Shown: positions 9,609 through 28,203 of the stretch, piece after piece
Layout: each line of letters opens with the position of its first letter
Position numbering within the stretch: the first letter of the stretch is position 1
Source of the DNA: an uncultured Thermodesulfobacteriota bacterium
GTDB lineage: Bacteria; Desulfobacterota; B13-G15
Length of the DNA stretch: 64,000 nt
Reading direction: 5' to 3'
Assembly: GCA_964543765.1 (NCBI GenBank)
Contig: CAZIZI010000001.1
Location: 170,475 to 234,474, forward strand
Program-made: the position numbers and the translations under genes
Notes under the pieces: generated by a model
Databases searched by the model: none
The model's input: the letters and a program-made list of their open reading frames with translations, nothing else
What the model was told of the DNA's origin: nothing

Positions 9609-10154
9609 TTGGAGGAAGAAAAGTACATTTACCTGTTTTTCTCAGAAGGAATAAAGGAGGTGGATTTCGAAAAAGTGAGATTTCAAATACAAAAAGAGTT
9701 CTTTCTGAAAACAATAGCTCAAATAAAAAAACTGGATCTTCGTCCTTATTATGAGAAGGGAAGAAAGCAATTTTATTCCACCTTGATCCTCAAAGAACTT
9801 CTCAAAAAACTCCCAAAAGATGCGGAAAAAGCCCTGCTCATCGTGGACGTTGATCTTTTTATACCTATTCTCACTTTTGTCTTTGGAGAGGCTCAACTAG
9901 GAGGTAAAGTTGGGATAGTATCATTAACCCGTTTAAGGCAAGAGTTTTATGGGCTTCCTTCAAACGAAGAGATTCTTCAGCGCAGGTTGATAAAGGAAAT
10001 AAAACACGAACTAGGACACACCTTTGGGCTTCTACATTGTTCATCCAGGGAATGTGTCATGTCCTTTGCTCCTAATATTTTAGCAGTCGACCAAAAGGGC
10101 ATGACCTTTTGCGCCTCTTGTAAGGATTTTCTTCTTAAGAATTTGATGCGTTGA
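9609..10154 (+). CDS. archaemetzincin-like zinc metallopeptidase (Amz family)
   Basis: C-terminal HELGHTFGLLHCSSRECVMSF...(16 aa)...CASC fits the archaemetzincin signature HExxHxxGx3Cx4CxM...CxxC; start set at TTG 9609 after GAGGGAGGGGGG RBS (ORF-track start 9561 is a TTG directly abutting the tRNA). Confidence 0.65.
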   Translation: MEEEKYIYLFFSEGIKEVDFEKVRFQIQKEFFLKTIAQIKKLDLRPYYEKGRKQFYSTLILKELLKKLPKDAEKALLIVDVDLFIPILTFVFGEAQLGGKVGIVSLTRLRQEFYGLPSNEEILQRRLIKEIKHELGHTFGLLHCSSRECVMSFAPNILAVDQKGMTFCASCKDFLLKNLMR

Positions 10155-10253
10155 AAAATTCAACAGAAGCGTTGAAAAAGCCAACGCATCTTTGACCCCC
10201 GGTTTTGACCCACTTCCCAAAAGGCTCCATATTTATTCACCTTTTTCTTTCTC

Positions 10254-10273
10254 GCTTCGGCATGCAAGTTGCT
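10254..10273 (+). promoter_or_regulatory. candidate sigma54 (-24/-12) promoter upstream of the GcvH-like / HybA-NrfD-c3 / two-component operon
   Basis: cGGCATgcaagTTGCTt matches TGGCAC-N5-TTGCW at GG (10259-60), CA, and TTGC with exact 12-nt GG-to-GC spacing; lies ~40 nt upstream of the first ORF start; an NtrC-type sigma54 activator is encoded in the same gene string. Confidence 0.3.
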
Positions 10274-10311: not shown

Positions 10312-10521
10312 ATGGCAGCAGTAAAGATAGCGATACTTATAGCGGTGGGAGTTTTGGCCATAGGTTTTGTAGGGCTTGTGATCTTTTATCCTTTGCTGAA
10401 GACGCTTCAGGGTTGGCTTGAGGGCTTTAAGGTTTGGGCTTTTGGAAAAGAGGTGCCTGTTGAAGTGGGTTTAACCATAGCTGATGGAGGTGAAGAGGCT
10501 AAAGAGAATAAGGAAGAATAA
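10312..10521 (+). CDS. small single-pass membrane protein (hypothetical)
   Basis: ATG 10312 follows GGAGGTG RBS; AAVKIAILIAVGVLAIGFVGLVIFYPLL hydrophobic helix then acidic tail. Confidence 0.45.
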   Translation: MAAVKIAILIAVGVLAIGFVGLVIFYPLLKTLQGWLEGFKVWAFGKEVPVEVGLTIADGGEEAKENKEE

Positions 10522-10537: not shown

Positions 10538-11464
10538 ATGGAGAGGTTTCTGAACAAAAAGTGTCCATTCCTTGGGGAGGAGAAAGTGCTTATTTGTAGG
10601 GCATTTCCTCTTAAAAAGCCCATTCCCCTGGATAAAGTTTATGCCCAGGAGAACTTTTGCCTAAAAGGCAATTACCAGAAATGTCCCGTATATCAAGAGG
10701 TGGCAAAAGAAAAGGAGAAAAGCCCTCATGGAGTATGTCCCTTTGTGGAAGTTGAAAACGTGAGTTTTTGTAAGCTGTTTCCGGCTAAGAAACTCTCTGT
10801 TTCGGGTGTTTATGAGCTCGGAAACCCTTGTACTACTGAGAGGCATCAAGAGTGCATTCTGTTTCTTACAGTTAGTAAAGGTGATCTAAGTTTATCAACG
10901 GAAGGAAGGCCTTATGTGGATTCTAACCGTCAATATCTAAAGGGACATTTTTGGATCAAAGAGGAAAGTGAAGGATTTAAAGTAGGCCTTGATGATTTCG
11001 CCCAGTTTTTGCTCGGTTCCATAAAAAGAATCACTTTACCTCCGGAAGGAACCATCCTGAAAATAGGAGAAGAGTTTTTAACGCTTGAAACCGAAAAAGG
11101 CACTTTTCAATTGCTTTCCCCTTTGGAGGGCGAAGTACGAAGACTCAACCTTGAACTTCTCGAGCATCCTGGCCTTTTAAATGAAGAACCCTATGGGAAG
11201 GGTTGGATTTTGATCATGAAAATTTCTGGTATTCCACTTACTTTAATGTCCCCTGAAGAAGCGAAGCAAGAGCTTTCCCATAAGTTACAATGGCTTTCGA
11301 GGTTCTTGGGTTCGGAAGACACAATGGCAGATGGAGGGGAGATAACATTCGAAAGCCTTAAAACATTAGATCGTGAAAAACAGAGGGTTTTGATCGAGGA
11401 ATTGCTTTTAAAAGAAATTAGGAAGGAGGTAAAGGATGGAGCTTTATCAGTATCAATGGGTTGA
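10538..11464 (+). CDS. GcvH-like (lipoyl-carrier-type) domain protein with N-terminal duplicated 4-Cys motif
   Basis: C-terminal GHFWIKEESEGFKVGLDDFAQFLLG...LETEKGTFQLLSPLEGEV mirrors GcvH (GITDFAQ..LG; ESVKA...SPVSGEV) with the Lys retained; N-terminal has two ~45-aa repeats CPF..(9-10)..C..(19)..C..(7)..C. Confidence 0.6.
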   Translation: MERFLNKKCPFLGEEKVLICRAFPLKKPIPLDKVYAQENFCLKGNYQKCPVYQEVAKEKEKSPHGVCPFVEVENVSFCKLFPAKKLSVSGVYELGNPCTTERHQECILFLTVSKGDLSLSTEGRPYVDSNRQYLKGHFWIKEESEGFKVGLDDFAQFLLGSIKRITLPPEGTILKIGEEFLTLETEKGTFQLLSPLEGEVRRLNLELLEHPGLLNEEPYGKGWILIMKISGIPLTLMSPEEAKQELSHKLQWLSRFLGSEDTMADGGEITFESLKTLDREKQRVLIEELLLKEIRKEVKDGALSVSMG

Positions 11465-12134
11465 TTTCTTCGCCACCAAGGGTCTCAAGTATCTGTTGAT
11501 CTTGGGCTTTTGGCTTGCCCTTTTCCCCTTCTGGAGGCTCCTTATGGGACCAGTTGGCAGAGTTTCCCTTCTTGTTTCCAGGGCCATAGAGGCGCTTTAT
11601 GGATGGTTCAACTTCCCCCAGACTCTTTACTACCATCAGGGTCACACTTGGGCAAAGGTGGAGGATGGTTTGGTAAAGGTGGGGCTTGATGACTTCGCTC
11701 AGAAGCTTTTGGGAAGGCCCGATGCCATAGAACTTCCCCTTATCGGAGGAAAGGTCAGACAAGGCGATATAGGTTGGAGGATAAGGATAGAGGAGAAGAT
11801 CTTAGAGATGCTTTCTCCGGTAAGTGGAGAGGTTTTGGCCATAAACAAGAAGGTCCTTGAGGATCCAAGTCTAATCCTTAAGGATCCCTATGGAGAGGGA
11901 TGGCTTTTGAAGATTAAGCCCGATAACCCTAAGGTTGACCTTCGGAACCTCCTTAAGGGTGAGGCCTTGAAGGGATGGATCCAAGGGACCCTTGATAGGT
12001 TAAGGGAGAGGCTTGGGGGAGAGCTTGGGCTTATGTATCAAGACGGTGGTCTTCCGGTGAACGGATTTGTCCGAATGATAGATCCCCAAAACTGGGACCA
12101 AATAGCAAGGGAATTCTTAATACCTGAGGGATAA
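11436..12134 (+). CDS. membrane-anchored GcvH-like (lipoyl-carrier-type) domain protein
   Basis: N-terminal TM helix LKYLLILGFWLALFPFW; then HQGHTWAKVEDGLVKVGLDDFAQKLLG...IEEKILEMLSPVSGEV (GcvH fold signature, Lys retained). Confidence 0.6.
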   Translation: MELYQYQWVDFFATKGLKYLLILGFWLALFPFWRLLMGPVGRVSLLVSRAIEALYGWFNFPQTLYYHQGHTWAKVEDGLVKVGLDDFAQKLLGRPDAIELPLIGGKVRQGDIGWRIRIEEKILEMLSPVSGEVLAINKKVLEDPSLILKDPYGEGWLLKIKPDNPKVDLRNLLKGEALKGWIQGTLDRLRERLGGELGLMYQDGGLPVNGFVRMIDPQNWDQIAREFLIPEG

Positions 12135-12283: not shown

Positions 12284-13126
12284 ATGAACAGAAGGGACTT
12301 TTTAAAAGCTTTAGGGATAGGGTTAATAAGCATTGGTGTTCGGCCTATTTTGGGTAGAGCGGAGAACGAAGAGTTTACGGAGTTTATGGGAATCCTGGTG
12401 GATACAACTCGGTGTATAGGATGTAGGGCTTGTGAAGCGGCTTGTGCCGAGAGTCACGGCCTTCCCGTTCTTGATATAAATGATACCAGCGTGTTTAAAA
12501 CCCCAAGAAAACCTTCTACCCAGCAACTGACAGTGGTCAATCGTTTTGAAACGGAAAAGGGAGAGGTATTTGTCAAAACCCAATGCATGCATTGTAATCA
12601 ACCCGCTTGTGTGGCAGCTTGTTTGGTTAAGGCTTTTAAAAAACAACCGAGTGGCCCTGTTACCTGGGATAAAAACTGCATAGGTTGTAGGTTTTGCATG
12701 TACAGTTGTCCATTTGACGTTCCAAAATTTGAATATGAAAAGGCCATTCCAGAAATAAAGAAATGTGACCTCTGTTGGGATCGTTTAAAGAAGGGTATGA
12801 TTCCCGCTTGTGTAGAAGCCTGTCCCCAGGAGGCTTTGATATTTGGTAAAAGAAGGGATCTTATCCATGAAGCAAAAACAAGAATTTATAAGGATCCCGA
12901 CAGATATTATCACCATATTTACGGTGAAAATGAAGTGGGGGGCACATCTTATTTATATCTTTCTAAAGTGCCTTTTGAACAAATTGGATTCCGTACCGAT
13001 TTGGGTTATACCCCTTACCCTGAATATGCAAAGATATTCATAGAAAGTGACGATCTCGTGTACATATTATGGCCCGTTGGCATGTGGTTGGTATATGAAC
13101 TCACTAAAAAAGGAGGTAGCCAATGA
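12284..13126 (+). CDS. Tat-exported 4x[4Fe-4S] ferredoxin-type subunit (HybA/HmcB/DsrO/PsrB-like)
   Basis: Twin-arginine signal MNRRDFLKALGIGLISIGVRPILGRA; four Cys clusters (CIGCRACEAAC, CMHCNQPACVAAC, CIGCRFCMYSCP, CDLCWDR...CVEACP); start ATG 12284 after GGGGG. Confidence 0.8.
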   Translation: MNRRDFLKALGIGLISIGVRPILGRAENEEFTEFMGILVDTTRCIGCRACEAACAESHGLPVLDINDTSVFKTPRKPSTQQLTVVNRFETEKGEVFVKTQCMHCNQPACVAACLVKAFKKQPSGPVTWDKNCIGCRFCMYSCPFDVPKFEYEKAIPEIKKCDLCWDRLKKGMIPACVEACPQEALIFGKRRDLIHEAKTRIYKDPDRYYHHIYGENEVGGTSYLYLSKVPFEQIGFRTDLGYTPYPEYAKIFIESDDLVYILWPVGMWLVYELTKKGGSQ

Positions 13127-13204: not shown

Positions 13205-14320
13205 ATGATAACAGCTCCTATCATTCTTATAGGATTAATCATAATTGCCATTAGGTTTTTTAAAGGACTAGGAGCAGTAACAAACCTTTCCCAAGAATTC
13301 CCATGGGGTTTGTGGATAGCTTTCGATGTAATGACAGGGGTTCCTTGGGCCGGTGGGGCTTTCTGTTTATGCTTTGTAGTGTACGTGGCACACTTTGAAA
13401 AATACAAGCCCATCTTGAGGGCTGCTATCCTTTCAGGGCTTTTAGGATATTCTTTTTACGCTGGAGCGTTAGTGCTTGATTTAGGTAGATGGTGGAATGC
13501 TTTTAATCCATTTATAGGAAATAAATTCGGATTTCAATCAGCTCTATGGTTGGTGGCCATCCATTTCTTACTATATACGATCTGTGAATTTATTGAGTTT
13601 TTACCTGTAGTAGCAGAGTGGTTAAACTTCCAGAGATTTAAACAATTTTTGCATTCAATTGCCTTGCCGGTTGTTATCTTGGGCATTACTTTGTCAACTC
13701 TTCACCAAGCTGGATTAGGAGCATTAGCGTTAATGGCGAAAGGTAAAATTCATCCTTTGTGGTGGTCAGAATTTACACCGGTTTTATTTTTCCTCCAAAG
13801 TATATTCGGAGGAATTGCTATGGTTATATTTGAGGGTTCTATAACACATAGAGTATTTAGTTATCGCATTCCCGAAGAAATACATGAAAAGCATTATTCT
13901 ATATTAATTGGATTGGCAAGAGGATGTGCGGGAGCCTTGTTTGCATATTTGGTTTTGAAAATTTTAATGTTCATTCATGTATACGGATGGAATTATGTCA
14001 TCTCAAAAATGGGAATATGGTATCTTATTGAGGTTATTGGTTTTGGTTTTTTACCTCTTTTTATGCTCGTTTCGGGAGTAAGGAATGAAGCTATAAATTT
14101 GATAAAAATTGCAGCATTAATGGCCATGATAGGTGTGGCAATATCTCGATTTAATTACGTGTTTATAGCTTATAAATGGTATTTACCTTTGAGCGAAAGG
14201 TATTTCCCCAGCTGGATGGAGATTTGGGTGACAGCTACCGTCGTTTTGGCTGAGATATGGGTTCTCAGATGGATAATAAACCGTATGCCTGTATATGCGG
14301 TTGAGAAGGAAGAGGAATGA
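13205..14320 (+). CDS. NrfD/PsrC-family integral membrane quinone-interacting subunit (HybB/HmcC/DsrP-like)
   Basis: 371 aa, ~10 predicted TM helices, typical NrfD-family length and hydrophobicity; immediately follows the HybA-like gene. Confidence 0.7.
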   Translation: MITAPIILIGLIIIAIRFFKGLGAVTNLSQEFPWGLWIAFDVMTGVPWAGGAFCLCFVVYVAHFEKYKPILRAAILSGLLGYSFYAGALVLDLGRWWNAFNPFIGNKFGFQSALWLVAIHFLLYTICEFIEFLPVVAEWLNFQRFKQFLHSIALPVVILGITLSTLHQAGLGALALMAKGKIHPLWWSEFTPVLFFLQSIFGGIAMVIFEGSITHRVFSYRIPEEIHEKHYSILIGLARGCAGALFAYLVLKILMFIHVYGWNYVISKMGIWYLIEVIGFGFLPLFMLVSGVRNEAINLIKIAALMAMIGVAISRFNYVFIAYKWYLPLSERYFPSWMEIWVTATVVLAEIWVLRWIINRMPVYAVEKEEE

Positions 14321-14333
14321 AGGGGGTGTGGAA

Positions 14334-14697
14334 ATGGGGCGTACGTCTGTTATTATTTTTGCAGTTATAATGGTAGCGACAGGGGGTTTTGGGTTTAGAT
14401 GTTATAAAAATTGACATCTTGAAAAACCGTTATGAAGGTGTTGAGTTTACCCATGGGGCGCACGTCGATTATGTGGGTGATTGTTCGCGATGTCATCATT
14501 TCAGCCAGGAACAAGTTAGATGCACAACTTGCCATGAGATTATCAAAGTTTATACTTACAAAGGAAGCAAAAGAGGTGCAGGTATTGGCCTCAAGGGCGC
14601 TTATCATGGTCTTTGTCTTGGGTGCCATAGGGAAATGGGAGGGCCCATTGGGTGTGAAGATTGCCATGTGCGAAAGAGGGTGAATCAGACGAGATGA
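14334..14697 (+). CDS. tetraheme cytochrome c3-type protein; signal peptide (ATG 14334) and heme domain (ORF 14389-14697) in different frames: frameshift/indel in a G5T4G3T3 run
   Basis: Frame of 14334: MGRTSVIIFAVIMVATGGFGF then stop at 14412; other frame: four CxxCH (CSRCH, CTTCH, CLGCH, CEDCH) plus His ligands; removing one base near 14385-14395 joins a Sec signal peptide to the heme domain. Confidence 0.6.
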
Positions 14698-16283
14698 GAT
14701 TTAAGTGGAAAGAGAGCTTAAGCTTTAAATTAATCATATGGGTTAGCACGGTAACCACTATTGCAATAGGGGGATTAACTTACGTTAATCTTCAAACAAA
14801 AAAGAAATATCTTATGGAAGAAGTAACCTCGCGTACTGAGCAATTAAGTGATGTGATAGTGCGAGGTCTTTGGTATGATATGTTGCACAATTACCGCGAT
14901 GCTTTATATCACTCGATAAAAGTAATAGGTGAACAAGAAGGTATAGTAAGAGTAAGAATTTTTAACAAAGAGGGCATTATCACCTATTCTTCGGATCGCA
15001 CTGAAATAGGCCATCAAGTAGATATGAAAGCTGAAGCGTGCTATGTTTGCCATGCGAGGGATAAACCTCTGGAGAGGTTAGATCTTCCAAAACGTACCCG
15101 CATTTTTAAGACTCCTCAGGGGCGAGTTCATGGGATGATAACGCCAATTTATAATGAGCCAGCTTGTTGGCAAGCTCCTTGTCACGCGCATCCGCCGGAA
15201 AAAACAGTTTTGGGAGTTCTTGACGTGGTGCTTTCCTTGAACAAGACCGACGAACGGATAAAACGCTTATTTTACAGGACTGTCCCATGGGCTGGGGTTA
15301 CCGTGGTTTTAATCTCGGTGATAATAAGCCTTTTCTTACGCGAATACGTTTATAAACCCACAAAAAGACTTTTAGAAGGGACAAAAAGGATTGCCGAGGG
15401 AGATTTTGATTATCGCATTCCTGTAACGTCGAAGGACGAATTAGGTGAGTTAACATTGGCTTTTAATGCGATGGCTAAAAGATTAAAGGAGGCAAATTTA
15501 GAGATAAAGGAACTGGTGGAGACATTGGAGACAAAAGTACAAGAAAGGACAAGGGAACTCGAGGAGATTCATAAGCAACTGTTACAAACAGAAAAACTCG
15601 CTGCCTTAGGAAAACTTGCTGCAAGTGTAGCTCACGAGATAAATAATCCATTAAGTGGAGTACTTACTTACATAAGATTAATGCAGAAAAAGCTTAATCA
15701 AACTGATGATCATGTATATTCTAAATTCAATCAATACCTTTCAACAATGGAAAGGGAAATTGAACGTTGTAGTACTATTGTGAAAAATCTTCTTGATTTT
15801 GCTCGAAAGAGGGAACCAAGTTTAAAAGAAGGCGTGGATATTAATGAGGTAATTGAGGAAACTGTAAAGCTAATTTCTAATAGGTTAAGTTTGCAAAACA
15901 TATATCTTGAAAAAGATTTGGGAGAACTTCCTCCTATTGTTGGTGATCCTGCGCAATTGCGTCAAGCTTTTTTAAATCTTATAATAAATGCTGCTGAAGC
16001 GATTCAAGACTCAACAGGTAAGATTACCGTAAGGACACGATATTTGCCCGATGAGAAAATGGTGATGGTGGAGATTTCTGATACTGGCGTAGGTATAAAA
16101 GAAGAGAATCTCAACAAGATTTTCGATCCGTTTTTTACCACAAAGGAAAAGGGCACGGGATTGGGGTTATCGGTGGTTTACGGTATAATAAGTGCTCATA
16201 AAGGACATATTTCAGTGAAGAGCAAAGTGGGTGAAGGGACGACTTTTACTATAAAACTACCGCTTGGGTTTAATGAGGCATGA
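14694..16283 (+). CDS. sensor histidine kinase with periplasmic heme-c-motif sensor domain, HAMP, HisKA, HATPase
   Basis: TM1 LIIWVSTVTTIAIGGL, periplasmic region with CYVCH and CWQAPCH (CxxCH and Cx4CH), TM2 VPWAGVTVVLISVIISLFL, HAMP, H-box AHEINNPL, N/G boxes (LIINAAEA, DTGVGI, GTGLGL); ATGA overlap with the c3 gene. Confidence 0.8.
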   Translation: MRFKWKESLSFKLIIWVSTVTTIAIGGLTYVNLQTKKKYLMEEVTSRTEQLSDVIVRGLWYDMLHNYRDALYHSIKVIGEQEGIVRVRIFNKEGIITYSSDRTEIGHQVDMKAEACYVCHARDKPLERLDLPKRTRIFKTPQGRVHGMITPIYNEPACWQAPCHAHPPEKTVLGVLDVVLSLNKTDERIKRLFYRTVPWAGVTVVLISVIISLFLREYVYKPTKRLLEGTKRIAEGDFDYRIPVTSKDELGELTLAFNAMAKRLKEANLEIKELVETLETKVQERTRELEEIHKQLLQTEKLAALGKLAASVAHEINNPLSGVLTYIRLMQKKLNQTDDHVYSKFNQYLSTMEREIERCSTIVKNLLDFARKREPSLKEGVDINEVIEETVKLISNRLSLQNIYLEKDLGELPPIVGDPAQLRQAFLNLIINAAEAIQDSTGKITVRTRYLPDEKMVMVEISDTGVGIKEENLNKIFDPFFTTKEKGTGLGLSVVYGIISAHKGHISVKSKVGEGTTFTIKLPLGFNEA

Positions 16284-17635
16284 AAGAAAAGGTTAACATA
16301 CTGGTTGTAGACGATGAGGAGATCGTCAGGGAGTCGCTTGTAGAATGGTTAAGGGAAGAGGGATATAATGCGGAGGCTGCGGAAGACGCTTTTAAGGCCC
16401 TTGAAAAAATCAAGGAACGGAATTGGGACATAGCTCTTGTGGACCTCAAGATGCCCAAAATGGATGGTTTGGAGCTTTTGGAAAGAATCAAAAAGGAGAG
16501 TCCAGATACACAGGTCATTATATTTACCGCTTATGCCACGGTTCATACGGCCGTTCAAGCTATAAAAAAGGGGGCTTACGATTACTTGGTTAAGCCATTG
16601 GATCCGGAGGAGGTTTCGCTTTTAATAGAGCGACTTTTAAAGAGTCAAGAGCTTTTAAAAGAGGTTTCCTTTTTAAGGAAAGAGCTTACCAAACAATATC
16701 GATTTCACGATCTGGTGAGCAAAAGTCCCAAAATGCAGAAGATTTTTGAGCTTGCTCGTACGGTTGCAAAAAGCAACTCCAATATCCTCATCCTTGGAGA
16801 GAGTGGGACGGGGAAAGAACTTTTGGCCAGAGCCATTCACAACGAAAGCCCTCGGGCGAATGGTCCTTTTGTGGCTGTTTCATGTGTGGCCATACCGGAT
16901 ACGCTTTTAGAAAGTGAGCTCTTTGGCCATGAGAAAGGCGCCTTTACCGATGCCATATCTCAGAAGAAGGGGAAGTTTGAGCTTGCTCACGGAGGTACCC
17001 TCTTTTTAGATGAGATAGGTGATATAAGCCCGAAGATGCAGCTTACCCTTTTGAGGGTATTGGAAGAGAAAGAATTTACCCGGGTTGGAGGCACAAAGCC
17101 CATAAAGGTGGATGTGAGGATCATCGCGGCTACTAATCGCGATTTACAAAAGGCAGTCCAAGAAGGACGCTTCCGCGATGACCTTTACTATAGGCTTAAT
17201 GTAATTACCATTCATTTACCGCCTTTAAGGGAACGTAAAGAGGATATCCCTCTTTTGGTTCAACATTTCATAGAGAAGTTTAACCTTCAGATGGGGAAGA
17301 AAGTAGAACGTATAAGTGACGAGGCTTTGAGAATGCTCATGCAATATGATTGGCCCGGTAACGTGAGGGAACTTGAAAATACCATCGAAAGGGCTATGGT
17401 AATTACTAAGGGAAAGGCGATAACGCCTGAAGATATTGAAATTCCAAGCCTTCAGAAGAACTTCCCTACGGAGGAAAGCGGAAAGACGCTTGAAGCTGTT
17501 GAAAGGGCGCACATTTTGAGGGTCCTAAACGAAACCGACTGGAATATCCAACGATCGGCCCAGATTCTGGGTATCGATAGGACTACTCTTTACAACAAGA
17601 TCAAGAAATACAACTTAAAAAAGCCCGAAGATTAA
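16280..17635 (+). CDS. sigma54-dependent response regulator (NtrC family: REC + AAA+ + Fis-type HTH)
   Basis: ILVVDDEE...DLKMP receiver; GESGTGKE Walker A; GAFTGA sigma54-interaction motif; C-terminal HTH ...RSAQILGIDRTTLYNKIKK; ATGA overlap with the kinase gene. Confidence 0.9.
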   Translation: MKEKVNILVVDDEEIVRESLVEWLREEGYNAEAAEDAFKALEKIKERNWDIALVDLKMPKMDGLELLERIKKESPDTQVIIFTAYATVHTAVQAIKKGAYDYLVKPLDPEEVSLLIERLLKSQELLKEVSFLRKELTKQYRFHDLVSKSPKMQKIFELARTVAKSNSNILILGESGTGKELLARAIHNESPRANGPFVAVSCVAIPDTLLESELFGHEKGAFTDAISQKKGKFELAHGGTLFLDEIGDISPKMQLTLLRVLEEKEFTRVGGTKPIKVDVRIIAATNRDLQKAVQEGRFRDDLYYRLNVITIHLPPLRERKEDIPLLVQHFIEKFNLQMGKKVERISDEALRMLMQYDWPGNVRELENTIERAMVITKGKAITPEDIEIPSLQKNFPTEESGKTLEAVERAHILRVLNETDWNIQRSAQILGIDRTTLYNKIKKYNLKKPED

Positions 17636-18240
17636 TCTTCATATCCCAAAATCATTGCCTTGAAGTGTGAGAAGAAAGTATGCCCGAGTGTGGCTAAGTA
17701 TATGTGGGCGATAACAAAGGCGAAGAAAGTATAGGCCAACAAGAGATGAACGGCCGCTATGACTTTGATTCCCCCGAGGAAGTTTATTACTTCCTTAAAA
17801 GTAAGGGGATCCCACAGGAATAAACCCGTGAGAATTTGGAGGGGCAACAGGAGGAACATAAGCATGAAGTAAATGATTTTTTGCAAAGAGTTAAACTTAT
17901 CGTCAGGTTTGGGCGTGAAAGGATGGGGTTCCCCAAAAAAATAACGAATAAAATAGTAATTGGCATAAATGGGAACCTTCTTAAGATCCTCCGAACGCGG
18001 TAAATAGACCTTCTGGAATTTCCCGGTGAGTACGTAATAGGCTCCAAGGATGAAGAAAGTAAAAAGTACTAAAAAACCACAAAAATTATGAACTTTAACG
18101 GATCCTTCAAATGAAAACATCTTAAGGGCTTCGGTAAAACGCATTTGAAAACCTGTAAAAATCAAAACCACAATACACACCGCATGTACCCAATGGCAAA
18201 TTCTTACCACTAAAGGATGCAATATTTCCCTCTTTCCCAT
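17632..18240 (-). CDS. membrane di-heme cytochrome b (Ni/Fe-hydrogenase b-type / cytochrome b561 PF01292-like)
   Basis: HPLVVRICHWVHAVCIVVLIFTGF and later His-containing TM helices typical of the PF01292 family; 4 TM; directly downstream of the multiheme cytochrome c gene. Confidence 0.65.
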   Translation of the reverse strand: MGKREILHPLVVRICHWVHAVCIVVLIFTGFQMRFTEALKMFSFEGSVKVHNFCGFLVLFTFFILGAYYVLTGKFQKVYLPRSEDLKKVPIYANYYFIRYFFGEPHPFTPKPDDKFNSLQKIIYFMLMFLLLPLQILTGLFLWDPLTFKEVINFLGGIKVIAAVHLLLAYTFFAFVIAHIYLATLGHTFFSHFKAMILGYED

Positions 18241-18241
18241 A

Positions 18242-19315
18242 TTACTCCTCCTCGTGTTTCTTACGCCATTTGATAGTTAAAATCCTCAATATCCCATGGA
18301 GGCCGACAAAAAGTATGGCTCCAATCAAGAATATGTATCCCAGTATATCAAGCCACCGCCATCCTATCTTAAATAGAACGCTTTCAAACTTTTCTGGTTC
18401 TTTTTCATTTATTAAGTCCTTCAAGTTTAGTAAAGTAAAACGATCGGAACCGATGGGATAAAAATTGAAGAGCCTCGTTAAGATGGAAGGATCCGCTTCC
18501 AAAGGACTTTCTTCATCTGAAAGGAGTAAAATGGGCCTTTTAGTTAATAATCTTGGCGAATGACAAGTGAGACAATCTTTTGCTTCTTCTTTGACTGCAT
18601 AATTATGAGAAACATTCAGCGGTAAAAGTTCTGCTTCAATTTTAACCTTCGCTCCTTCCTTTTTAAGTTTAGAAAGGTATGATTTAAATTCCTCATAACT
18701 CACAAATCCGTCGCCGTTAATGTCGACTTTTTTCCCTTTAGCGGTTTGCCCTTTTACAAATAAAAAAATCCTACTCTCACCTTCCGCATTATGACAAGCG
18801 GTGCAGGAAACTTTTTCTCCTAAGATATGTTTACAGTGGGGGTAACCTTTAGAAAGAAGCTCCTTTTTTTCGTGACAATTTAGACAGGGCAGGTTTCTAT
18901 CTTTAACCTGAACTTGGAGCGTAGGTTTAACGTAGTGAGGGTCATGACATTGATAACATAAGGCCGGATGGCCGCTTGATTCGTATGCTTCTGCTACCTC
19001 CTTGTGGCATAAACTACAGTCAACTCTTCCAAGCTTTTGAGGATGGGGAACATCTGATATGTCATTGTGACAATCCAAGCAATTAAATCCTCCGTGAGAA
19101 GAGGAGGCAAACCGCTTCGGATCTATGTAGAGGGAAGAAAGCCCTCGAGGCAATTCCTCTTTTTTTTCCGATGGGATTACCATTTGATTTCTTTCTTCTG
19201 GTGACATGGATAAGATTTCCGGTTTACCATGACACTCGAAGCAGGCCTCTTTTTCTAAGGCCGATGAAAAAAAGGGGAAACATAACAAAAATAAGAAAAT
19301 TACAAAGCTTCGCAT
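18242..19315 (-). CDS. membrane-anchored multiheme (7x CxxCH) cytochrome c with internal EF-hand-like motif
   Basis: Signal peptide MRSFVIFLFLLCFPFFSSA (ATG 19315 after GGGAG RBS); CFECH, CLDCH, CSLCH, CYQCH, CLNCH, CTACH, CLTCH; DINGDGFVSYEEF matches the EF-hand loop DxNxDGxxxxxE; C-terminal TM helix FLIGAILFVGLHGIL. Confidence 0.75.
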   Translation of the reverse strand: MRSFVIFLFLLCFPFFSSALEKEACFECHGKPEILSMSPEERNQMVIPSEKKEELPRGLSSLYIDPKRFASSSHGGFNCLDCHNDISDVPHPQKLGRVDCSLCHKEVAEAYESSGHPALCYQCHDPHYVKPTLQVQVKDRNLPCLNCHEKKELLSKGYPHCKHILGEKVSCTACHNAEGESRIFLFVKGQTAKGKKVDINGDGFVSYEEFKSYLSKLKKEGAKVKIEAELLPLNVSHNYAVKEEAKDCLTCHSPRLLTKRPILLLSDEESPLEADPSILTRLFNFYPIGSDRFTLLNLKDLINEKEPEKFESVLFKIGWRWLDILGYIFLIGAILFVGLHGILRILTIKWRKKHEEE

Positions 19316-19382: not shown

Positions 19383-19625
19383 CTACAAGGTGATAACTAT
19401 CGCTCCAAAAGGACATTCCGTCACACAAGTGTAACAACCATGACAACGGCTTGAATCTAGGGAGGGGATTTCGCCTGGATCCAGTTGGATCAAGGCCTTA
19501 CTCTTACAAGCTTTAAGGGCGAGACATTTCTTACAAGCTTTACATAAAGCTGGATCTACCCGAGGCGGCTTATGGGCTTGAAGGTTAATGCTTCCCATCG
19601 ATTTATAGGGCATAAATACCCACAA
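19383..19625 (-). CDS. 2x[4Fe-4S] ferredoxin
   Basis: CKACKKC...C and CHGCYTCVTECP cluster motifs; 80 aa. Confidence 0.7.
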   Translation of the reverse strand: MWVFMPYKSMGSINLQAHKPPRVDPALCKACKKCLALKACKSKALIQLDPGEIPSLDSSRCHGCYTCVTECPFGAIVITL

Positions 19626-19684
19626 GCCCCCTTCTAACGCAAGGGGGCTTGGGGGACCCTTGGTTGAACTTAGCCCTAATCCAC

Positions 19685-19900
19685 TTATTTGCTCTCGGGA
19701 GCCTTTTGGGTTGCGGGTGCTTGAGTCTGGTTCTCGGCAGGGGCAGGCTGTGTTTGATTTTCAGAAGGAGCCGGAGCAGGTGCCGTGACGTTTTCAGAAG
19801 GAGCCGGAGCAGGTGCTTCCTCTTTTTTCTTACACCCATATCCAAAACCTATTGCACCAGCCAGGATAAGACTCAATACAATGCCCCCTACTTTTTTCAT
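19685..19900 (-). CDS. small lipoprotein with Pro/Ala-rich repeat linker
   Basis: Signal peptide plus lipobox GFGYGC, then APAPAPSEN(V/Q)T repeats encoded by a ~33-bp tandem DNA repeat. Confidence 0.55.
   Translation of the reverse strand: MKKVGGIVLSLILAGAIGFGYGCKKKEEAPAPAPSENVTAPAPAPSENQTQPAPAENQTQAPATQKAPESK
19757..19816. repeat. tandem direct repeat (2 copies, ~33 bp: ttttcagaaggagccggagcaggtgc) inside the lipoprotein gene
   Basis: Exact 26-nt core repeated at ~19757 and ~19791; encodes the PAPAPSEN repeat. Confidence 0.7.
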
Positions 19901-19938
19901 CGTTCCACCTCCTAAGGTTAAATATTTTTAAGATGACA

Positions 19939-19979
19939 ATCATATGTCCTATTTAAGATAAGTGTCAAGAGGGTTGACT
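19939..19979. promoter_or_regulatory. divergent sigma70-like promoter region (minus-strand TTGACA-18-TATGAT for the lipoprotein/cytochrome operon; plus-strand TTGACT for mltD)
   Basis: Minus strand: TTGACA (19968-19963) and TATGAT (19944-19939); plus strand TTGACT at 19974-19979 followed by TAAAT ~17 nt downstream. Confidence 0.3.
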
Positions 19980-26373: not shown

Positions 26374-28203
26374 ATGGTTGAACTTCGAGGCAGGAAAAAA
26401 AGTGGTTTTTTGACTCACGTGGTAAAGAAGCAGAGGTTTCAACTTGAGGACGTGGATAAACCCGAGTTGTTTAAAGACATATTTCCCTATGAAGAGATCT
26501 GTAGAACCGTATTCGATCATCGGGTTGAGCTTATTGATCCTCCCGACGAGATTTTCATCACGGATACCACCTTTAGAGATGGTCAACAATCAAGGCCTCC
26601 TTACACGGTAGAACAGATGGTAGACCTTTACAAGTTCCTATACCGCCTTGGAGGAGCAGCTGGAGTGATCCGTCAGACCGAGTTTTTCATCTATACCAAA
26701 AGGGACCGGGAGGCGGTAGAGAGATGTCTTGAGCTTGGTTACAAGTATCCGGAGATAACGGGATGGATAAGGGCTAACAAGGAAGACCTGAAGCTGGTAA
26801 AGGAAATGGGCTTAAAGGAGACGGGGATTCTCACTTCCGTTTCGGATTATCACATCTTTCTTAAGCTTGGCAAAAACCGCCGTACGGCTTTGATTGATTA
26901 CTTAAGGGTTGTAGAGGCGGCTCTTGAACATGGAATAAGGCCAAGATGCCATTTTGAGGATGTCACTAGGGCTGATATTTACGGATTTGTGATCCCCTTT
27001 GCTCAAGAGTTAATGAGGCTTTCTGAGGAGAGCGGTATTCCAATAAAGATTCGCCTTTGTGATACCTTAGGCGTAGGGGTTCCTTATCCTGGGACGGTTC
27101 TACCTCGAAGTGTTCCTAAACTGGTCAGGGCCATGGTGGATGAAGCAGGGGTTCCTTCTGAACAGCTTGAGTGGCATGGTCATAACGATTTTTATAAAGC
27201 TTTGATCAATGGAGTTACCGCTTGGCTTTACGGCTGTTCGGCCGTAAACGGAACCCTTTTGGGTATTGGTGAGAGGACGGGCAATACCCCTATTGAGGCC
27301 TTGATAATAGAATACATAAGCCTCACCGGTAACCATCACGGCATTGATACCACCGTAATTACCGATATAAAGAATTATTATGAATACGTAATAGGAGAAA
27401 GAATCCCTAAAAACCAGCCCTTTGTAGGTGCCGAGTTTAACCTTACAAGTGCGGGTATCCATATAGACGGTCTCATAAAGAATGAGGAGATTTATAATAG
27501 CTTTGACACCGAAAAGATCCTTAAGAGGCCTATTGCTATAGCCATTAACGATAAATCGGGAACCGCTGGTATTGCTTATTGGATAAACTCTTACTTCGCT
27601 TTGCCGCCCGAAAAGCGGGTCGATAAACGACATCCCGGAGTTGTAAAGGTTTATAAATGGGTTAAAGAGCAATATGAAAAGGGACGTACCACCAACATTT
27701 CATCTGAAGAATTGGAACGAAAGGTCAGAAAGTATCTGCCTGAGCTTTTCGTTTCCGATTTCGATCGGATAAAACGAAGAGCTTACGAAATGGCTGCCCA
27801 TTTGGCGGAAAAACTTGTGGAGCATCCCGAGATACGCTCAATGGATCCGAAGCGTCAAGAACTCTTGTTGGCCAAAGTGCTTGAGGAGTATCCATTTATA
27901 CAATTCCTTTACGTGGTGAATTTAGAGGGCAAAAAGGTCACTCGCAATATTTGCCATCCGGAAGATAGGGCCAAATACGAAGTGATAGGGCTTGATGAGG
28001 ACTTCTCAAATAGGGATTGGTTCATCGAACCCCTTAAGTCAGGAAAGGTTTATATCTCAAACTTCTATACCTCCAGAATAACCGGTGCCCTATGTATAAC
28101 GGTTTCGGCTCCTATAAGGAACGAGGAGGAGGAGATCGTGGGTATTTTAGGGATGGATTTGAGGTTTGAAGAACTCGTCAAGGTGGAAGAAGAGGAAGTA
28201 TGA
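26374..28203 (+). CDS. DRE-TIM metallolyase (HMGL/LeuA-like, isopropylmalate/citramalate/Re-citrate-synthase family) fused to a C-terminal Cache-like sensory domain
   Basis: FITDTTFRDGQQS; CDTLG; HGHNDFYKALINGV; GIGERTGNTPIEALI (LeuA/HMGL catalytic motifs); C-terminal KVYISNFYTSRITGALCITVSAPIRNEEEEIVGILGMDLRFEEL resembles a Cache/PAS-like ligand-binding module. Confidence 0.6.
   Translation: MVELRGRKKSGFLTHVVKKQRFQLEDVDKPELFKDIFPYEEICRTVFDHRVELIDPPDEIFITDTTFRDGQQSRPPYTVEQMVDLYKFLYRLGGAAGVIRQTEFFIYTKRDREAVERCLELGYKYPEITGWIRANKEDLKLVKEMGLKETGILTSVSDYHIFLKLGKNRRTALIDYLRVVEAALEHGIRPRCHFEDVTRADIYGFVIPFAQELMRLSEESGIPIKIRLCDTLGVGVPYPGTVLPRSVPKLVRAMVDEAGVPSEQLEWHGHNDFYKALINGVTAWLYGCSAVNGTLLGIGERTGNTPIEALIIEYISLTGNHHGIDTTVITDIKNYYEYVIGERIPKNQPFVGAEFNLTSAGIHIDGLIKNEEIYNSFDTEKILKRPIAIAINDKSGTAGIAYWINSYFALPPEKRVDKRHPGVVKVYKWVKEQYEKGRTTNISSEELERKVRKYLPELFVSDFDRIKRRAYEMAAHLAEKLVEHPEIRSMDPKRQELLLAKVLEEYPFIQFLYVVNLEGKKVTRNICHPEDRAKYEVIGLDEDFSNRDWFIEPLKSGKVYISNFYTSRITGALCITVSAPIRNEEEEIVGILGMDLRFEELVKVEEEEV

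What the first reader, a model, noticed from the sequence alone, without database searches (positions are those of the whole stretch)
14694..17635. Two-component system whose sensor kinase carries c-type heme motifs in its periplasmic domain
Between the two TM helices the kinase has CYVCH and CWQAPCH (CxxCH and Cx4CH), so the periplasmic sensor probably binds one or two covalently attached hemes. That makes it a direct redox or ligand sensor, comparable to the periplasmic heme-c PAS sensors described in Geobacter. It overlaps the c3 gene by 4 nt and is followed, with another 4-nt overlap, by a sigma54-dependent NtrC-type activator. Together with the upstream sigma54 promoter candidate, this suggests the respiratory locus is tuned to periplasmic redox state.
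Basis: partly seen in the sequence, partly recalled or inferred. Interest (0 to 1): 0.65.

Follow-up and report, generated by a model that had tools for sequence, protein, structure and literature searches.

The report
Two-haem periplasmic sensor kinase system
This is a histidine kinase whose periplasmic domain almost certainly carries two covalently bound haems, paired with a sigma-54 activator that probably switches on the adjacent membrane electron-transfer genes. It belongs to a large, widespread and experimentally unstudied branch of the Geobacter haem-sensor family.

Summary
The kinase (14694-16283) has two transmembrane helices flanking a 164-residue periplasmic domain. That domain holds C116-YV-C119-H120 and C158-WQAP-C163-H164-A-H166. 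Both 4-nt gene overlaps are real.

In 280 relatives the first motif is invariant. The second is CX4CH in 260 and CX2CH, CX3CH or CX5CH in 13. That behaviour is typical of a haem c attachment site.

The domain is predicted to have a single-Cache fold. A profile of the family hits the solved Geobacter haem sensors GSU0935 and GSU0582. Their proven CXXCH aligns with the window's second motif, and their distal ligand Met60 aligns with the invariant M63. The first motif sits in an insertion those proteins lack.

A sigma-54 promoter candidate (10258) lies downstream of a GTTGAAnnnTTCAAC palindrome (10150). Both precede an operon of GcvH-like, HmcB-like, HmcC-like and c3 genes plus the kinase and regulator, and both elements recur in related loci.

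In 80 genomes from many phyla this kinase sits beside the same module. In 36 of them the partner regulator is a receiver fused to a GcvH-like domain.

Haem binding and the signal remain untested.

The parts
10150..10185 (+). Candidate upstream activator sites: perfect palindrome GTTGAAAAATTCAAC (10150-10164) and a 2-mismatch copy GTTGAAAAAGCCAAC (10171-10185), 75-110 bp upstream of the -24 element
   Evidence: The perfect match is the only one in the 64 kb window. There are 11 hits at <=2 mismatches against 3.8 expected. In 1.07 Mb of related loci there are only 15 hits at <=1 mismatch, and 9 of them lie 90-570 bp upstream of a stand-alone GcvH-like or HmcB-like gene.
10258..10273 (+). Sigma-54 (-24/-12) promoter candidate cGGCATgcaagTTGCt, about 40 nt upstream of the first gene of the operon
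   Evidence: Equivalent GG-N10-GC elements lie just upstream of the first GcvH-like gene (or the small ORF before it) in L007, L008, L012, L016, L026, L034, L042 and L084. Background is 0.17 hits per kb over both strands.
10312..10521 (+). Small membrane protein (69 aa), first gene of the putative operon
   Evidence: ORF. Called in L001-L003. Homologues in L007, L008 and L012.
10538..11464 (+). GcvH-like protein 1 (308 aa): two N-terminal Cys-rich repeats followed by a GCV_H domain
   Evidence: Pfam GCV_H E 6.7e-24. Homologues sit next to the kinase in most related loci.
11436..12134 (+). GcvH-like protein 2 (232 aa): N-terminal membrane anchor followed by a GCV_H domain
   Evidence: Pfam GCV_H E 1.2e-23. 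NCBIfam GcvH_rel_desulf E 1.2e-11.
12284..13126 (+). HmcB/HybA-like periplasmic 4Fe-4S protein with a Tat signal (MNRRDFLK)
   Evidence: Pfam Fer4_11. NCBIfam HmcB E 2.2e-98, below its cut-off. Start position taken from the gene calls.
13205..14320 (+). HmcC/HybB-like (NrfD-family) integral membrane subunit
   Evidence: NCBIfam HmcC E 1.1e-101, below its cut-off. The homologue in L027 hits Pfam NrfD.
14334..14697 (+). Tetrahaem cytochrome c3 gene, frameshifted: signal peptide from ATG 14334 in one frame, cytochrome domain 14389-14697 in another (extra G in the run 14382-14386)
   Evidence: Pfam Cytochrom_CIII E 1.5e-10. Four CxxCH. Frame comparison with the intact L005 and other homologues.
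14694..16283 (+). Sensor histidine kinase (529 aa): TM1, periplasmic two-haem single-Cache domain, TM2, HAMP, HisKA, HATPase_c
14787..15278 (+). Periplasmic sensor domain (residues 32-195), predicted single-Cache/PDC fold
14880..14882 (+). Met63, candidate distal axial ligand of haem 2
   Evidence: Present in 278/280 relatives. Aligns with Met60 of GSU0935, its known distal ligand.
15039..15053 (+). Haem-binding motif 1, C116-Y-V-C119-H120, in a beta2-beta3 connector about 17 residues longer than in GSU0935
   Evidence: Present in 280/280 relatives. The region is absent from the GSU0935 alignment. Local pLDDT is low, 61-65, as expected for a cofactor loop modelled without its cofactor.
15165..15191 (+). 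Haem-binding motif 2, C158-WQAP-C163-H164-A-H166, between beta4 and beta5
   Evidence: CX4CH in 260 of 280 relatives, CX2CH in 7, CX3CH in 5, CX5CH in 1. Aligns with the proven Cys140-x-x-Cys143-His144 site of GSU0935.
16280..17635 (+). Sigma-54-dependent response regulator (REC, AAA+ with GAFTDA, HTH_8)
   Evidence: Pfam, NCBIfam AtoC/NtrC-like, motifs.
17632..18240 (-). Dihaem cytochrome b, thiosulfate-reductase PhsC-like (CbcB-like); converges on the regulator gene with a 4-nt overlap
   Evidence: Pfam Ni_hydr_CYTB E 3.6e-29. NCBIfam PhsC-like E 2.6e-31. Matches the description of CbcB.
18242..19315 (-). Seven-haem c-type cytochrome with a C-terminal membrane anchor (CbcA-like)
   Evidence: Seven CxxCH and a C-terminal hydrophobic helix. 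Start taken from the gene calls. Matches the description of CbcA.

Best explanation
The kinase is a two-haem member of the periplasmic haem-c single-Cache sensor lineage typified by Geobacter GSU0935 and GSU0582.

Haem 2 is attached at C158/C163, with H164 as the proximal ligand and Met63 from the N-terminal helix as the redox-labile distal ligand. This is the same arrangement as in GSU0935. Haem 1 is attached at C116/C119, with H120 proximal, in an extra loop. H166 is a possible sixth ligand.

The proposed signalling path is as follows.
1. A change in periplasmic redox poise shifts haem oxidation and ligation. The change could reach the sensor through the co-encoded c-type cytochrome and the HmcBC-like quinone module. 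Displacement of Met63 by NO or CO could act in the same way.
2. The N-terminal helix, which continues into TM1, moves, and the signal passes through TM2 and HAMP to the kinase core.
3. The kinase phosphorylates the sigma-54 activator.
4. The activator binds the GTTGAAnnnTTCAAC sites at 10150-10185 and activates the -24/-12 promoter at 10258.
5. That promoter drives the operon: small membrane protein, two GcvH-like proteins, HmcB-like, HmcC-like, c3, kinase and regulator. The circuit is therefore autoregulated.

Shown here: motif conservation, homology to the solved haem sensors, predicted fold, intact catalytic motifs, and recurrence of the promoter, the palindrome and the gene module across genomes.

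Inferred: covalent haem at both sites, the axial ligands, the nature of the signal, and the regulator-DNA pairing.
For: Motifs and topology.

Conservation: CxxCH is present in 280/280 relatives and M63 in 278/280. The second site is CX4CH in 260, CX2CH in 7, CX3CH in 5 and CX5CH in 1.

Homology: the family profile hits 3b42 (GSU0935) at E 5.4e-7 and 3b47 (GSU0582) at E 4.2e-5. NEQRCQSCH of GSU0935 aligns on PIYNEPaCwqapCH, and the Met pair of GSU0935 aligns on M63. The numbering offset of 34 places those residues at Cys140, Cys143, His144 and Met60, which the review PMC8396549 names as the haem site.

Pfam: 30 of 32 relatives touch PF21563 (best E 1.6e-11). PF21563 is the GSU0935 family, since GSU0935 itself scores E 2.8e-40.

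Fold: Cache/PDC.

Regulation: sigma-54 promoter and palindrome.

Synteny: 60 of 80 genome loci carry HmcC-like and/or GcvH-like genes within 8 kb of the kinase. Among the 55 loci of at least 12 kb, 40 carry both.

Literature: G. sulfurreducens signal transducers with one or two CX2-4CH motifs include the kinase GSU0599. The sigma-54 regulator BccR (GSU0598, the adjacent locus tag) is required to induce the cbcBA cytochrome genes at low potential. No sensor was named in that work.
Against: No haem has been demonstrated for any member of this two-motif clade.

The window protein itself scores below threshold on PF21563 (15.8 bits against a cut-off of 27) and does not hit PF11845.

H166 is lost in the CX2CH variants, so the sixth ligand of haem 1 is uncertain.

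The c3 gene that would be the natural redox partner is frameshifted in this population.

Six of the sigma-54-type loci showed no promoter match at my threshold.

Sequence orthology to GSU0599 and GSU0598 could not be tested.
Confidence: 0.65

Rival explanations
1. The domain is a gas sensor, mainly for NO and possibly CO, rather than a redox-potential sensor. The ligand displaces the distal Met or binds an open coordination site, and that event sets kinase activity.
For: The sCache_heme preprint PMC12889525 reports that a haem-Cache domain fused to signalling modules binds NO tightly with slow dissociation and proposes NO sensing for that class. NO and CO displace Met60 in GSU0582 and GSU0935. 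No universally conserved sixth ligand is evident for haem 1.
Against: The invariant Met63 (278/280) and H166 (259/280) suggest six-coordinate haems. The conserved neighbours are quinone-linked electron-transfer proteins, not NO-detoxifying or denitrification genes. For GSU0582 and GSU0935 the favoured model in the literature is redox-linked ligand switching.
Confidence: 0.2
2. Only one site binds haem: the CX4CH site homologous to GSU0935. The extra CYVCH motif has another role, for example metal binding or a structural disulfide.
For: Only the second site has a solved, haem-bound homologue. The motif 1 loop is poorly modelled.
Against: C-x-x-C-H, including the His, is invariant in 280/280 relatives. 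A disulfide or metal site would not require the His directly after the second Cys. The surrounding segment resembles a haem-motif segment of NrfA nitrite reductases (1fs7, E 1.6e-4). The literature already counts two haem motifs in GSU0599, GSU0591, Adeh_2011 and Adeh_3383.
Confidence: 0.1
3. The cysteines form a thiol/disulfide or Fe-S/Zn redox switch and no haem is bound. The motifs only mimic haem sites.
For: Four periplasmic cysteines could in principle form two disulfides. No biochemical data exist for this clade.
Against: The domain is homologous to two crystal structures with covalently bound haem at the aligned site. The Cys spacing varies from 2 to 5 residues while the following His is kept. 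The distal Met is conserved. The domain is periplasmic, and the surrounding locus encodes several c-type cytochromes.
Confidence: 0.03

Closest known systems
GSU0582 and GSU0935 periplasmic haem-c sensor domains of Geobacter sulfurreducens chemoreceptors (PDB 3B47, 3B42; Pfam PF21563 Mcp40H-20_sensor)
   Same: Both are periplasmic domains between two TM helices, followed by HAMP. Both have a Cache/PDC-like fold. The haem site sits after the conserved P-x-x-N-E segment between the last beta strands, and a distal Met comes from the N-terminal helix. The homology is detectable by profile (E 5.4e-7 and 4.2e-5).
   Different: The output here is a histidine kinase, not a chemoreceptor. The homologous site is CX4CH followed by an extra His (CHxH) rather than CXXCH. 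A second, invariant CXXCH lies in a connector about 17 residues longer. The window protein is below the PF21563 threshold.
sCache_heme family (DUF3365/Tll0287-like, PF11845), preprint PMC12889525
   Same: Both combine a Cache-superfamily fold with a covalently bound c-type haem and occur fused to kinases, chemoreceptors and other outputs. Both are enriched in Desulfobacterota and related phyla. The idea that a cytochrome-derived fragment was inserted into a Cache scaffold fits the extra motif here.
   Different: The window protein does not hit PF11845, and only 4 of 32 relatives do so weakly. Tll0287 uses Cys/His ligation, whereas this family has an invariant Met. This family has two motifs, and that study does not describe two-haem members.
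GSU0599 kinase and BccR (GSU0598) with the cbcBA operon of G. sulfurreducens
   Same: GSU0599 is a two-component protein listed with two CX2-4CH motifs, and by locus tag it is adjacent to BccR, a REC, sigma-54 and HTH regulator. The genes nearby encode a thiosulfate-reductase-like dihaem cytochrome b and a seven-haem cytochrome c with a C-terminal anchor. The window has the same three elements side by side.
   Different: Sequence orthology was not tested. In the window the cytochrome b/c pair converges on the regulator gene and has a sigma-70-like promoter candidate, not a sigma-54 one. The promoter and palindrome found here precede the GcvH-like/HmcBC-like operon instead. Across genomes the kinase tracks that module, not the b/c pair, which is adjacent in only 4 of 80 loci.
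DcrA of Desulfovibrio vulgaris (chemoreceptor with a periplasmic c-type haem)
   Same: It is a periplasmic c-type haem used for redox or oxygen sensing in a sulfate reducer.
   Different: It is a chemoreceptor with a single haem. No sequence comparison was made here.
Hmc, Nhc and Qrc-type membrane redox complexes of sulfate reducers
   Same: The regulated genes encode an HmcB-like Tat-exported FeS protein, an HmcC-like NrfD-family membrane subunit and a class III cytochrome c.
   Different: All scores are below the NCBIfam equivalog cut-offs. There are no HmcD, HmcE or HmcF equivalents. The module is instead always accompanied by GcvH-like proteins.

Membership tests
Haem-c single-Cache periplasmic sensors (GSU0582/GSU0935 type, PF21563) | Extracytoplasmic domain between two TM helices, followed by a cytoplasmic signalling module | tested here: met
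   TM1 at residues 8-31 and TM2 at 196-218, with HAMP at 221-266.
Haem-c single-Cache periplasmic sensors (GSU0582/GSU0935 type, PF21563) | Cache/PDC (PAS-like) fold | tested here: met
Haem-c single-Cache periplasmic sensors (GSU0582/GSU0935 type, PF21563) | Conserved c-type haem attachment motif at the position of Cys140-x-x-Cys143-His144 of GSU0935 | tested here: met
   C158-x4-C163-H164 aligns there. It is CX4CH in 260 of 280 relatives and CX2CH, CX3CH or CX5CH in 13.
Haem-c single-Cache periplasmic sensors (GSU0582/GSU0935 type, PF21563) | Distal Met on the N-terminal helix (Met60 of GSU0935) | tested here: met
   M63 aligns with Met60 and is present in 278/280 relatives.
Haem-c single-Cache periplasmic sensors (GSU0582/GSU0935 type, PF21563) | Score above the Pfam gathering threshold of PF21563 | tested here: not met
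   The window domain scores 15.8 bits (E 0.018) against a cut-off of 27, and matches only profile positions 80-111. Of 32 relatives, 30 match at E<=1, best 1.6e-11. GSU0935 itself scores 137.5 bits.
Haem-c single-Cache periplasmic sensors (GSU0582/GSU0935 type, PF21563) | Covalently bound haem, redox-linked spin and ligand switch | not testable with these tools
   This needs expression with the Ccm system and spectroscopy.
sCache_heme / Tll0287-like (PF11845) | Match to the PF11845 profile | tested here: not met
   The window domain gives no hit at E<=10. Of 32 relatives, 4 hit weakly, best E 0.0018.
Sigma-54-dependent (NtrB/NtrC-type) two-component system | Kinase with HisKA and HATPase_c; regulator with REC, a sigma-54 AAA+ domain carrying GAFTGA, and an HTH | tested here: met
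   Pfam hits. Motifs H314, D55, GESGTGKE and GAFTDA.
Sigma-54-dependent (NtrB/NtrC-type) two-component system | A -24/-12 promoter with upstream activator sites at a target operon | tested here: met
   The window has a candidate at 10258-10273 with palindromes at 10150-10185. Both recur in related loci far above background. These are sequence predictions only.
Geobacter BccR/GSU0599-cbcBA system | Two-haem-motif kinase, sigma-54 regulator and a CbcB-like b plus CbcA-like seven-haem c in one neighbourhood | tested here: met
   The architecture matches the published descriptions.
Geobacter BccR/GSU0599-cbcBA system | Sequence orthology to GSU0599 and GSU0598 | not tested
Geobacter BccR/GSU0599-cbcBA system | Sigma-54 promoter in front of the cytochrome b/c operon | tested here: not met
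   There is no GG-N10-GC match at <=2 mismatches between 19400 and 20000. The best element there is a sigma-70-like promoter at 19968-19939.

The most novel reading that the evidence does not exclude
The two-haem kinase is the input of a conserved, undescribed signalling and respiration module found in many phyla. In this module a non-lipoylated GcvH-like domain is the effector. In about half of the lineages the domain is fused to receiver domains (REC-GcvH and TM-REC-GcvH), so the kinase would control the HmcBC-like quinone/cytochrome complex post-translationally by phosphorylation. In the window's lineage the same GcvH-like effectors are instead switched on transcriptionally through sigma-54. 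This would be a new response-regulator output domain and a direct two-component control of an electron-transfer complex. The same kinase family could also be the missing redox-potential sensor upstream of BccR in Geobacter.
Probability: 0.3. Interest if true: 0.8.

Novelty: new variant of a known kind. Interest (0 to 1): 0.6.

Why it matters
Periplasmic c-type haem sensors are known from only a few characterised proteins, all with one haem. This finding defines a large two-haem branch. It comprises at least 590 genome hits and 696 sequence clusters at 50% identity with E<=1e-30. Current Pfam models do not capture it, and it has clear, testable ligand assignments: Met63, H120, H164 and H166.

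The kinase is tied to a specific quinone-linked cytochrome module and a predicted operator, so signal, sensor, regulator and regulon can all be tested in one system.

It also bears on an open question in the Geobacter field. Cells switch inner-membrane cytochromes according to redox potential through the sigma-54 regulator BccR, but no sensor has been named. A two-haem kinase of this description is encoded at the adjacent locus tag.

The receiver-GcvH fusions found in related loci suggest an unrecognised response-regulator output.

Tried and rejected
- A single-sequence search of the sensor region against PDB sequences found nothing relevant. Only the family profile reached GSU0935 and GSU0582.
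- Pfam on the full kinase and on the isolated sensor domain gave no significant sensor-domain hit.
A 10-sequence alignment worked.
- The afdb50 fold library was unavailable, so no UniProt-named structural neighbours, for example Geobacter proteins, could be obtained.
- I looked for a sigma-54 promoter or the palindrome near the CbcBA-like operon and found none. I therefore do not claim that operon as a target.
- The overall count of sigma-54-like matches in the window is not above chance: 21 against 34 expected at 2 mismatches. The promoter call therefore rests on its position and its recurrence in other genomes, not on motif enrichment.
- Literature searches for the GcvH-like/NrfD/kinase combination and for receiver-GcvH fusions returned nothing relevant.
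- A database search with one GcvH-like domain returned only 9 fragments and says nothing about how common the fusions are.
- Ten further large ORFs elsewhere in the window showed no cytochrome c maturation genes.
- A lipoyl-carrier role for the GcvH-like domains was considered and set aside. The lipoyl-lysine column holds Lys in only 17 of 36 stand-alone and 5 of 58 receiver-fused domains.

Full report
**1. What is in the sequence**

The finding covers two overlapping genes on the + strand. The kinase runs from 14694 to 16283 (529 aa) and the response regulator from 16280 to 17635 (451 aa).

Hydropathy gives two transmembrane segments in the kinase, at about residues 8-31 and 196-218. Basic residues flank their cytoplasmic ends, so residues 32-195 face the periplasm. 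This stretch holds C116-Y-V-C119-H120 and C158-W-Q-A-P-C163-H164-A-H166.

After TM2 come HAMP, HisKA and HATPase_c. The regulator has a receiver, a sigma-54 AAA+ domain and HTH_8. Phospho-acceptor and nucleotide-binding motifs are intact in both proteins.

**2. Are the motifs more than chance?**

A word-indexed search with the N-terminal 220 residues found 14 relatives. A second search with their alignment found 579. An exhaustive profile search of 1.84 billion cluster representatives gave 696 proteins at E<=1e-30. The much larger counts at weaker E-values are mostly HAMP matches.

In an alignment of 280 of these sequences, with identity to the window down to about 35%, conservation is as follows:
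- C116, C119 and H120 are present in all 280.
- C158 is present in 274, C163 in 276, H164 in 276 and H166 in 259.
- M63 is present in 278.

At the second site the Cys-Cys spacing varies while the following His is kept. It is CX4CH in 260, CX2CH in 7, CX3CH in 5 and CX5CH in 1. This is how haem c attachment sites behave. A disulfide or a metal site would not show this pattern.

**3. What the domain is**

The periplasmic part has no significant Pfam match, and a single-sequence search of PDB sequences found nothing.

An AlphaFold2 model built on 127 sequences has mean pLDDT 85.4. It shows a long N-terminal helix, a second helix, two strands, a long connector, three more strands and an exit helix.

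A profile of 32 trimmed sensor domains hits GSU0935 at E 5.4e-7 and GSU0582 at E 4.2e-5. In the printed alignment:
- LVLPFPNEQRCQSCH of GSU0935 lies on the family's LINPIYNEPsCxxxxCH.
- The Met pair of GSU0935's N-terminal helix lies on the invariant M63.

The chain numbering offset is 34. These residues are therefore Cys140, Cys143, His144 and Met60, which the review PMC8396549 names as the haem attachment residues and axial ligands of GSU0935.

Three conclusions follow:
- The window's CX4CH site with Met63 is the homologue of an experimentally proven His/Met haem c site.
- The CYVCH motif lies in a connector about 17 residues longer than in GSU0935 and is an additional site.
- H166 is a candidate sixth ligand, but it is lost in the CX2CH variants.

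**4. Family placement**

PF21563 (Mcp40H-20_sensor) is the Pfam model of the GSU0935 domain. GSU0935 scores 137.5 bits on it.

The window domain scores only 15.8 bits against a threshold of 27. Of 32 relatives, 30 touch the model, best E 1.6e-11. Four touch PF11845 (Tll0287-like) weakly.

The family is thus a divergent sister of the known haem-Cache sensors that current models do not capture.

The literature already notes that some Geobacter and Anaeromyxobacter sensors carry a second haem motif. Those named are GSU0591, GSU0599, Adeh_2011 and Adeh_3383. I found no characterisation of any of them. The recent sCache_heme preprint does not describe two-haem members.

**5. Surroundings in the window**

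Upstream on the same strand, with short gaps or overlaps, lie these genes:
- a 69-aa membrane protein (10312-10521)
- two GcvH-like proteins (10538-11464 and 11436-12134)
- a Tat-exported HmcB/HybA-like FeS protein (12284-13126)
- an HmcC/NrfD-like membrane subunit (13205-14320)
- a tetrahaem c3

The c3 gene is broken. Its signal peptide starts at ATG 14334 in a different frame from the cytochrome domain, because of one extra G in the run 14382-14386. The 93%-identical locus L005 and all more distant homologues have an intact signal peptide. The three metagenome assemblies that cover the site (L001-L003) share the extra G.

Downstream, converging on the regulator gene with a 4-nt overlap, are two cytochrome genes:
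- a thiosulfate-reductase-like dihaem cytochrome b
- a seven-haem cytochrome c with a C-terminal anchor

This pair matches the published description of Geobacter CbcB and CbcA. Their induction at low potential needs the sigma-54 regulator BccR (GSU0598). The paper names no sensor.

**6. Regulatory elements**

About 40 nt before the first gene of the operon is cGGCATgcaagTTGCt (10258-10273). Some 75-110 bp further upstream are GTTGAAAAATTCAAC, the only perfect match in 64 kb, and GTTGAAAAAGCCAAC.

Sigma-54-like matches are not enriched in the window as a whole. The case therefore rests on comparative data:
- Among related loci with a sigma-54 regulator, L007, L008, L012, L016, L026, L034, L042 and L084 have a GG-N10-GC element just upstream of the first GcvH-like gene or the small ORF before it. 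Background is 0.17 hits per kb.
- In 1.07 Mb of related loci the palindrome occurs only 15 times at <=1 mismatch. Nine of those lie 90-570 bp upstream of a stand-alone GcvH-like or HmcB-like gene.

I found neither element in front of the CbcBA-like genes. The best match there is a sigma-70-like promoter.

**7. Wider distribution**

A scan of one genome per species found at least 590 genomes with this sensor domain. They span Thermodesulfobacteriota, NC10, Calditrichota, Ignavibacteria, Bacteroidota, Acidobacteriota, KSB1, Gemmatimonadota, Rokubacteria and others. The window's nearest named relatives are Thermodesulfobacteriota MAGs.

In the 80 best loci:
- 60 carry an HmcC-like and/or a GcvH-like gene within 8 kb of the kinase.
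- Among the 55 loci of at least 12 kb, 40 carry both.
- The cytochrome b/c pair is adjacent in only 4.
- The partner regulator is REC-sigma-54 in 30 loci.
- In 36 loci it is a receiver fused to a GcvH-like domain. There are usually two, one soluble of about 267 aa and one membrane-anchored of about 387 aa. Pfam confirmed this for L027 and L072.

The window's two GcvH-like proteins, one soluble and one membrane-anchored, mirror that pair without the receiver.

The lipoyl-lysine column is poorly conserved: Lys in 17 of 36 stand-alone and 5 of 58 fused domains. Most of these domains are probably not lipoyl carriers.

These 80 loci are the ones closest to the query, so the synteny statement applies to this clade only.

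**8. How it most likely works**

By homology with GSU0935 and GSU0582, haem 2 would lose or gain its Met63 ligand with oxidation state, or on NO or CO binding. Met63 sits on the helix that continues into TM1, so this would move the transmembrane helices and HAMP and set kinase activity.

The phosphorylated regulator would bind the palindromes and activate the sigma-54 promoter of the whole operon, which includes the kinase and regulator genes themselves.

A c-type cytochrome gene lies immediately before the kinase gene in many loci, and the HmcBC-like quinone module is constantly present. This suggests that the sensor haems are poised by this electron-transfer chain rather than by bulk solutes. 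That step is inference.

The main rival is NO sensing, as proposed for signalling-linked sCache_heme proteins. I rate it lower for two reasons: the conserved sixth-ligand candidates, and the absence of nitrogen-oxide genes among the conserved neighbours.

**9. Verdict**

The kinase is not categorically new. Haem-c Cache sensors are known, and two-motif versions have been noted.

It does define a large, uncharacterised two-haem variant with a conserved partner module, a predicted operator, and an unexpected alternative output in the receiver-GcvH fusions.

Direct proof of haem binding, the signal, and orthology to Geobacter GSU0599 are still missing.

Noticed in passing
window 14334-14697 (run of G at 14382-14386): The tetrahaem c3 gene just upstream of the kinase is frameshifted. 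Its signal peptide (MGRTSVIIFAVIMVATGG...) is out of frame with the cytochrome domain because of one extra G relative to the intact gene in L005. The same extra G is in the assemblies L001-L003, so it looks real rather than an assembly error. Gene callers on those contigs called a wrong-frame 76-aa ORF instead.
   Followed up: yes
L027 9806-10612 and 10684-11847; L072 9436-10239 and 10296-11465; 36 of 80 related loci: Next to the two-haem kinase, many genomes encode response regulators made of a receiver domain fused to a GcvH-like domain. One is soluble (about 267 aa) and one membrane-anchored (about 387 aa). These take the place of a sigma-54 regulator. I found no description of this architecture in the searched literature.
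   Followed up: partly
window 10538-12134 and the GcvH-like domains of related loci: The GcvH-like domains mostly lack the lipoyl-lysine: Lys in 17 of 36 stand-alone and 5 of 58 receiver-fused copies. Both window copies do have a Lys at the expected spacing. GcvH-like protein 1 carries two N-terminal Cys-rich repeats (CPF...C...C...C) with no Pfam match, and the same N-terminal ...RCPFL... motif is visible in L008, L026, L034 and L042.
   Followed up: partly
window 14880-15080 (kinase residues about 63-129): The family profile weakly matches a haem-motif segment of cytochrome c nitrite reductases NrfA (1fs7, E 1.6e-4). YSDHKVGNPLDNMDKSCMNCH of NrfA lies against YSSDRTEIGHQVDMKAEACYVCH of the window. 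This hints that the extra haem motif came from a cytochrome fragment.
   Followed up: no
window 17632-17635: The sigma-54 regulator gene (+) and the cytochrome b gene (-) converge and overlap by 4 nt at their stop codons. There is no room for a terminator between them.
   Followed up: no
window 19383-19968 (- strand): Upstream of the seven-haem cytochrome lie an 80-aa 2x[4Fe-4S] ferredoxin ORF and a 71-aa lipoprotein-like ORF rich in Ala-Pro repeats. Gene callers did not call the ferredoxin ORF on the identical contigs. The region has a near-consensus sigma-70 promoter (TTGACA-18-TATGAT, 19968-19939). A GC-rich hairpin between the lipoprotein ORF and the ferredoxin ORF was seen by eye in the sequence.
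   Followed up: partly
window 26374-28203: This ORF combines an HMGL-like (pyruvate carboxyltransferase-type) domain with a C-terminal Cache/PDC sensor-like domain, which is an unusual pairing.
   Followed up: no
relatives P0134 and P0009: There are rare departures at the second haem site. P0134 has S-x4-C-H, with the first Cys lost, as in single-thioether haem sites. P0009 has C-x4-C-L-x-H, with the proximal His replaced.
   Followed up: no
L005 (contig CAZZJO010000005.1): The closest genome hit is 99% identical to the window over the sensor-domain segment (about 92-98% across the locus genes). Its MAG is labelled Verrucomicrobiota, whereas all next-closest loci are Thermodesulfobacteriota. 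This is probably a binning or labelling problem for that 3.8 kb contig.
   Followed up: no
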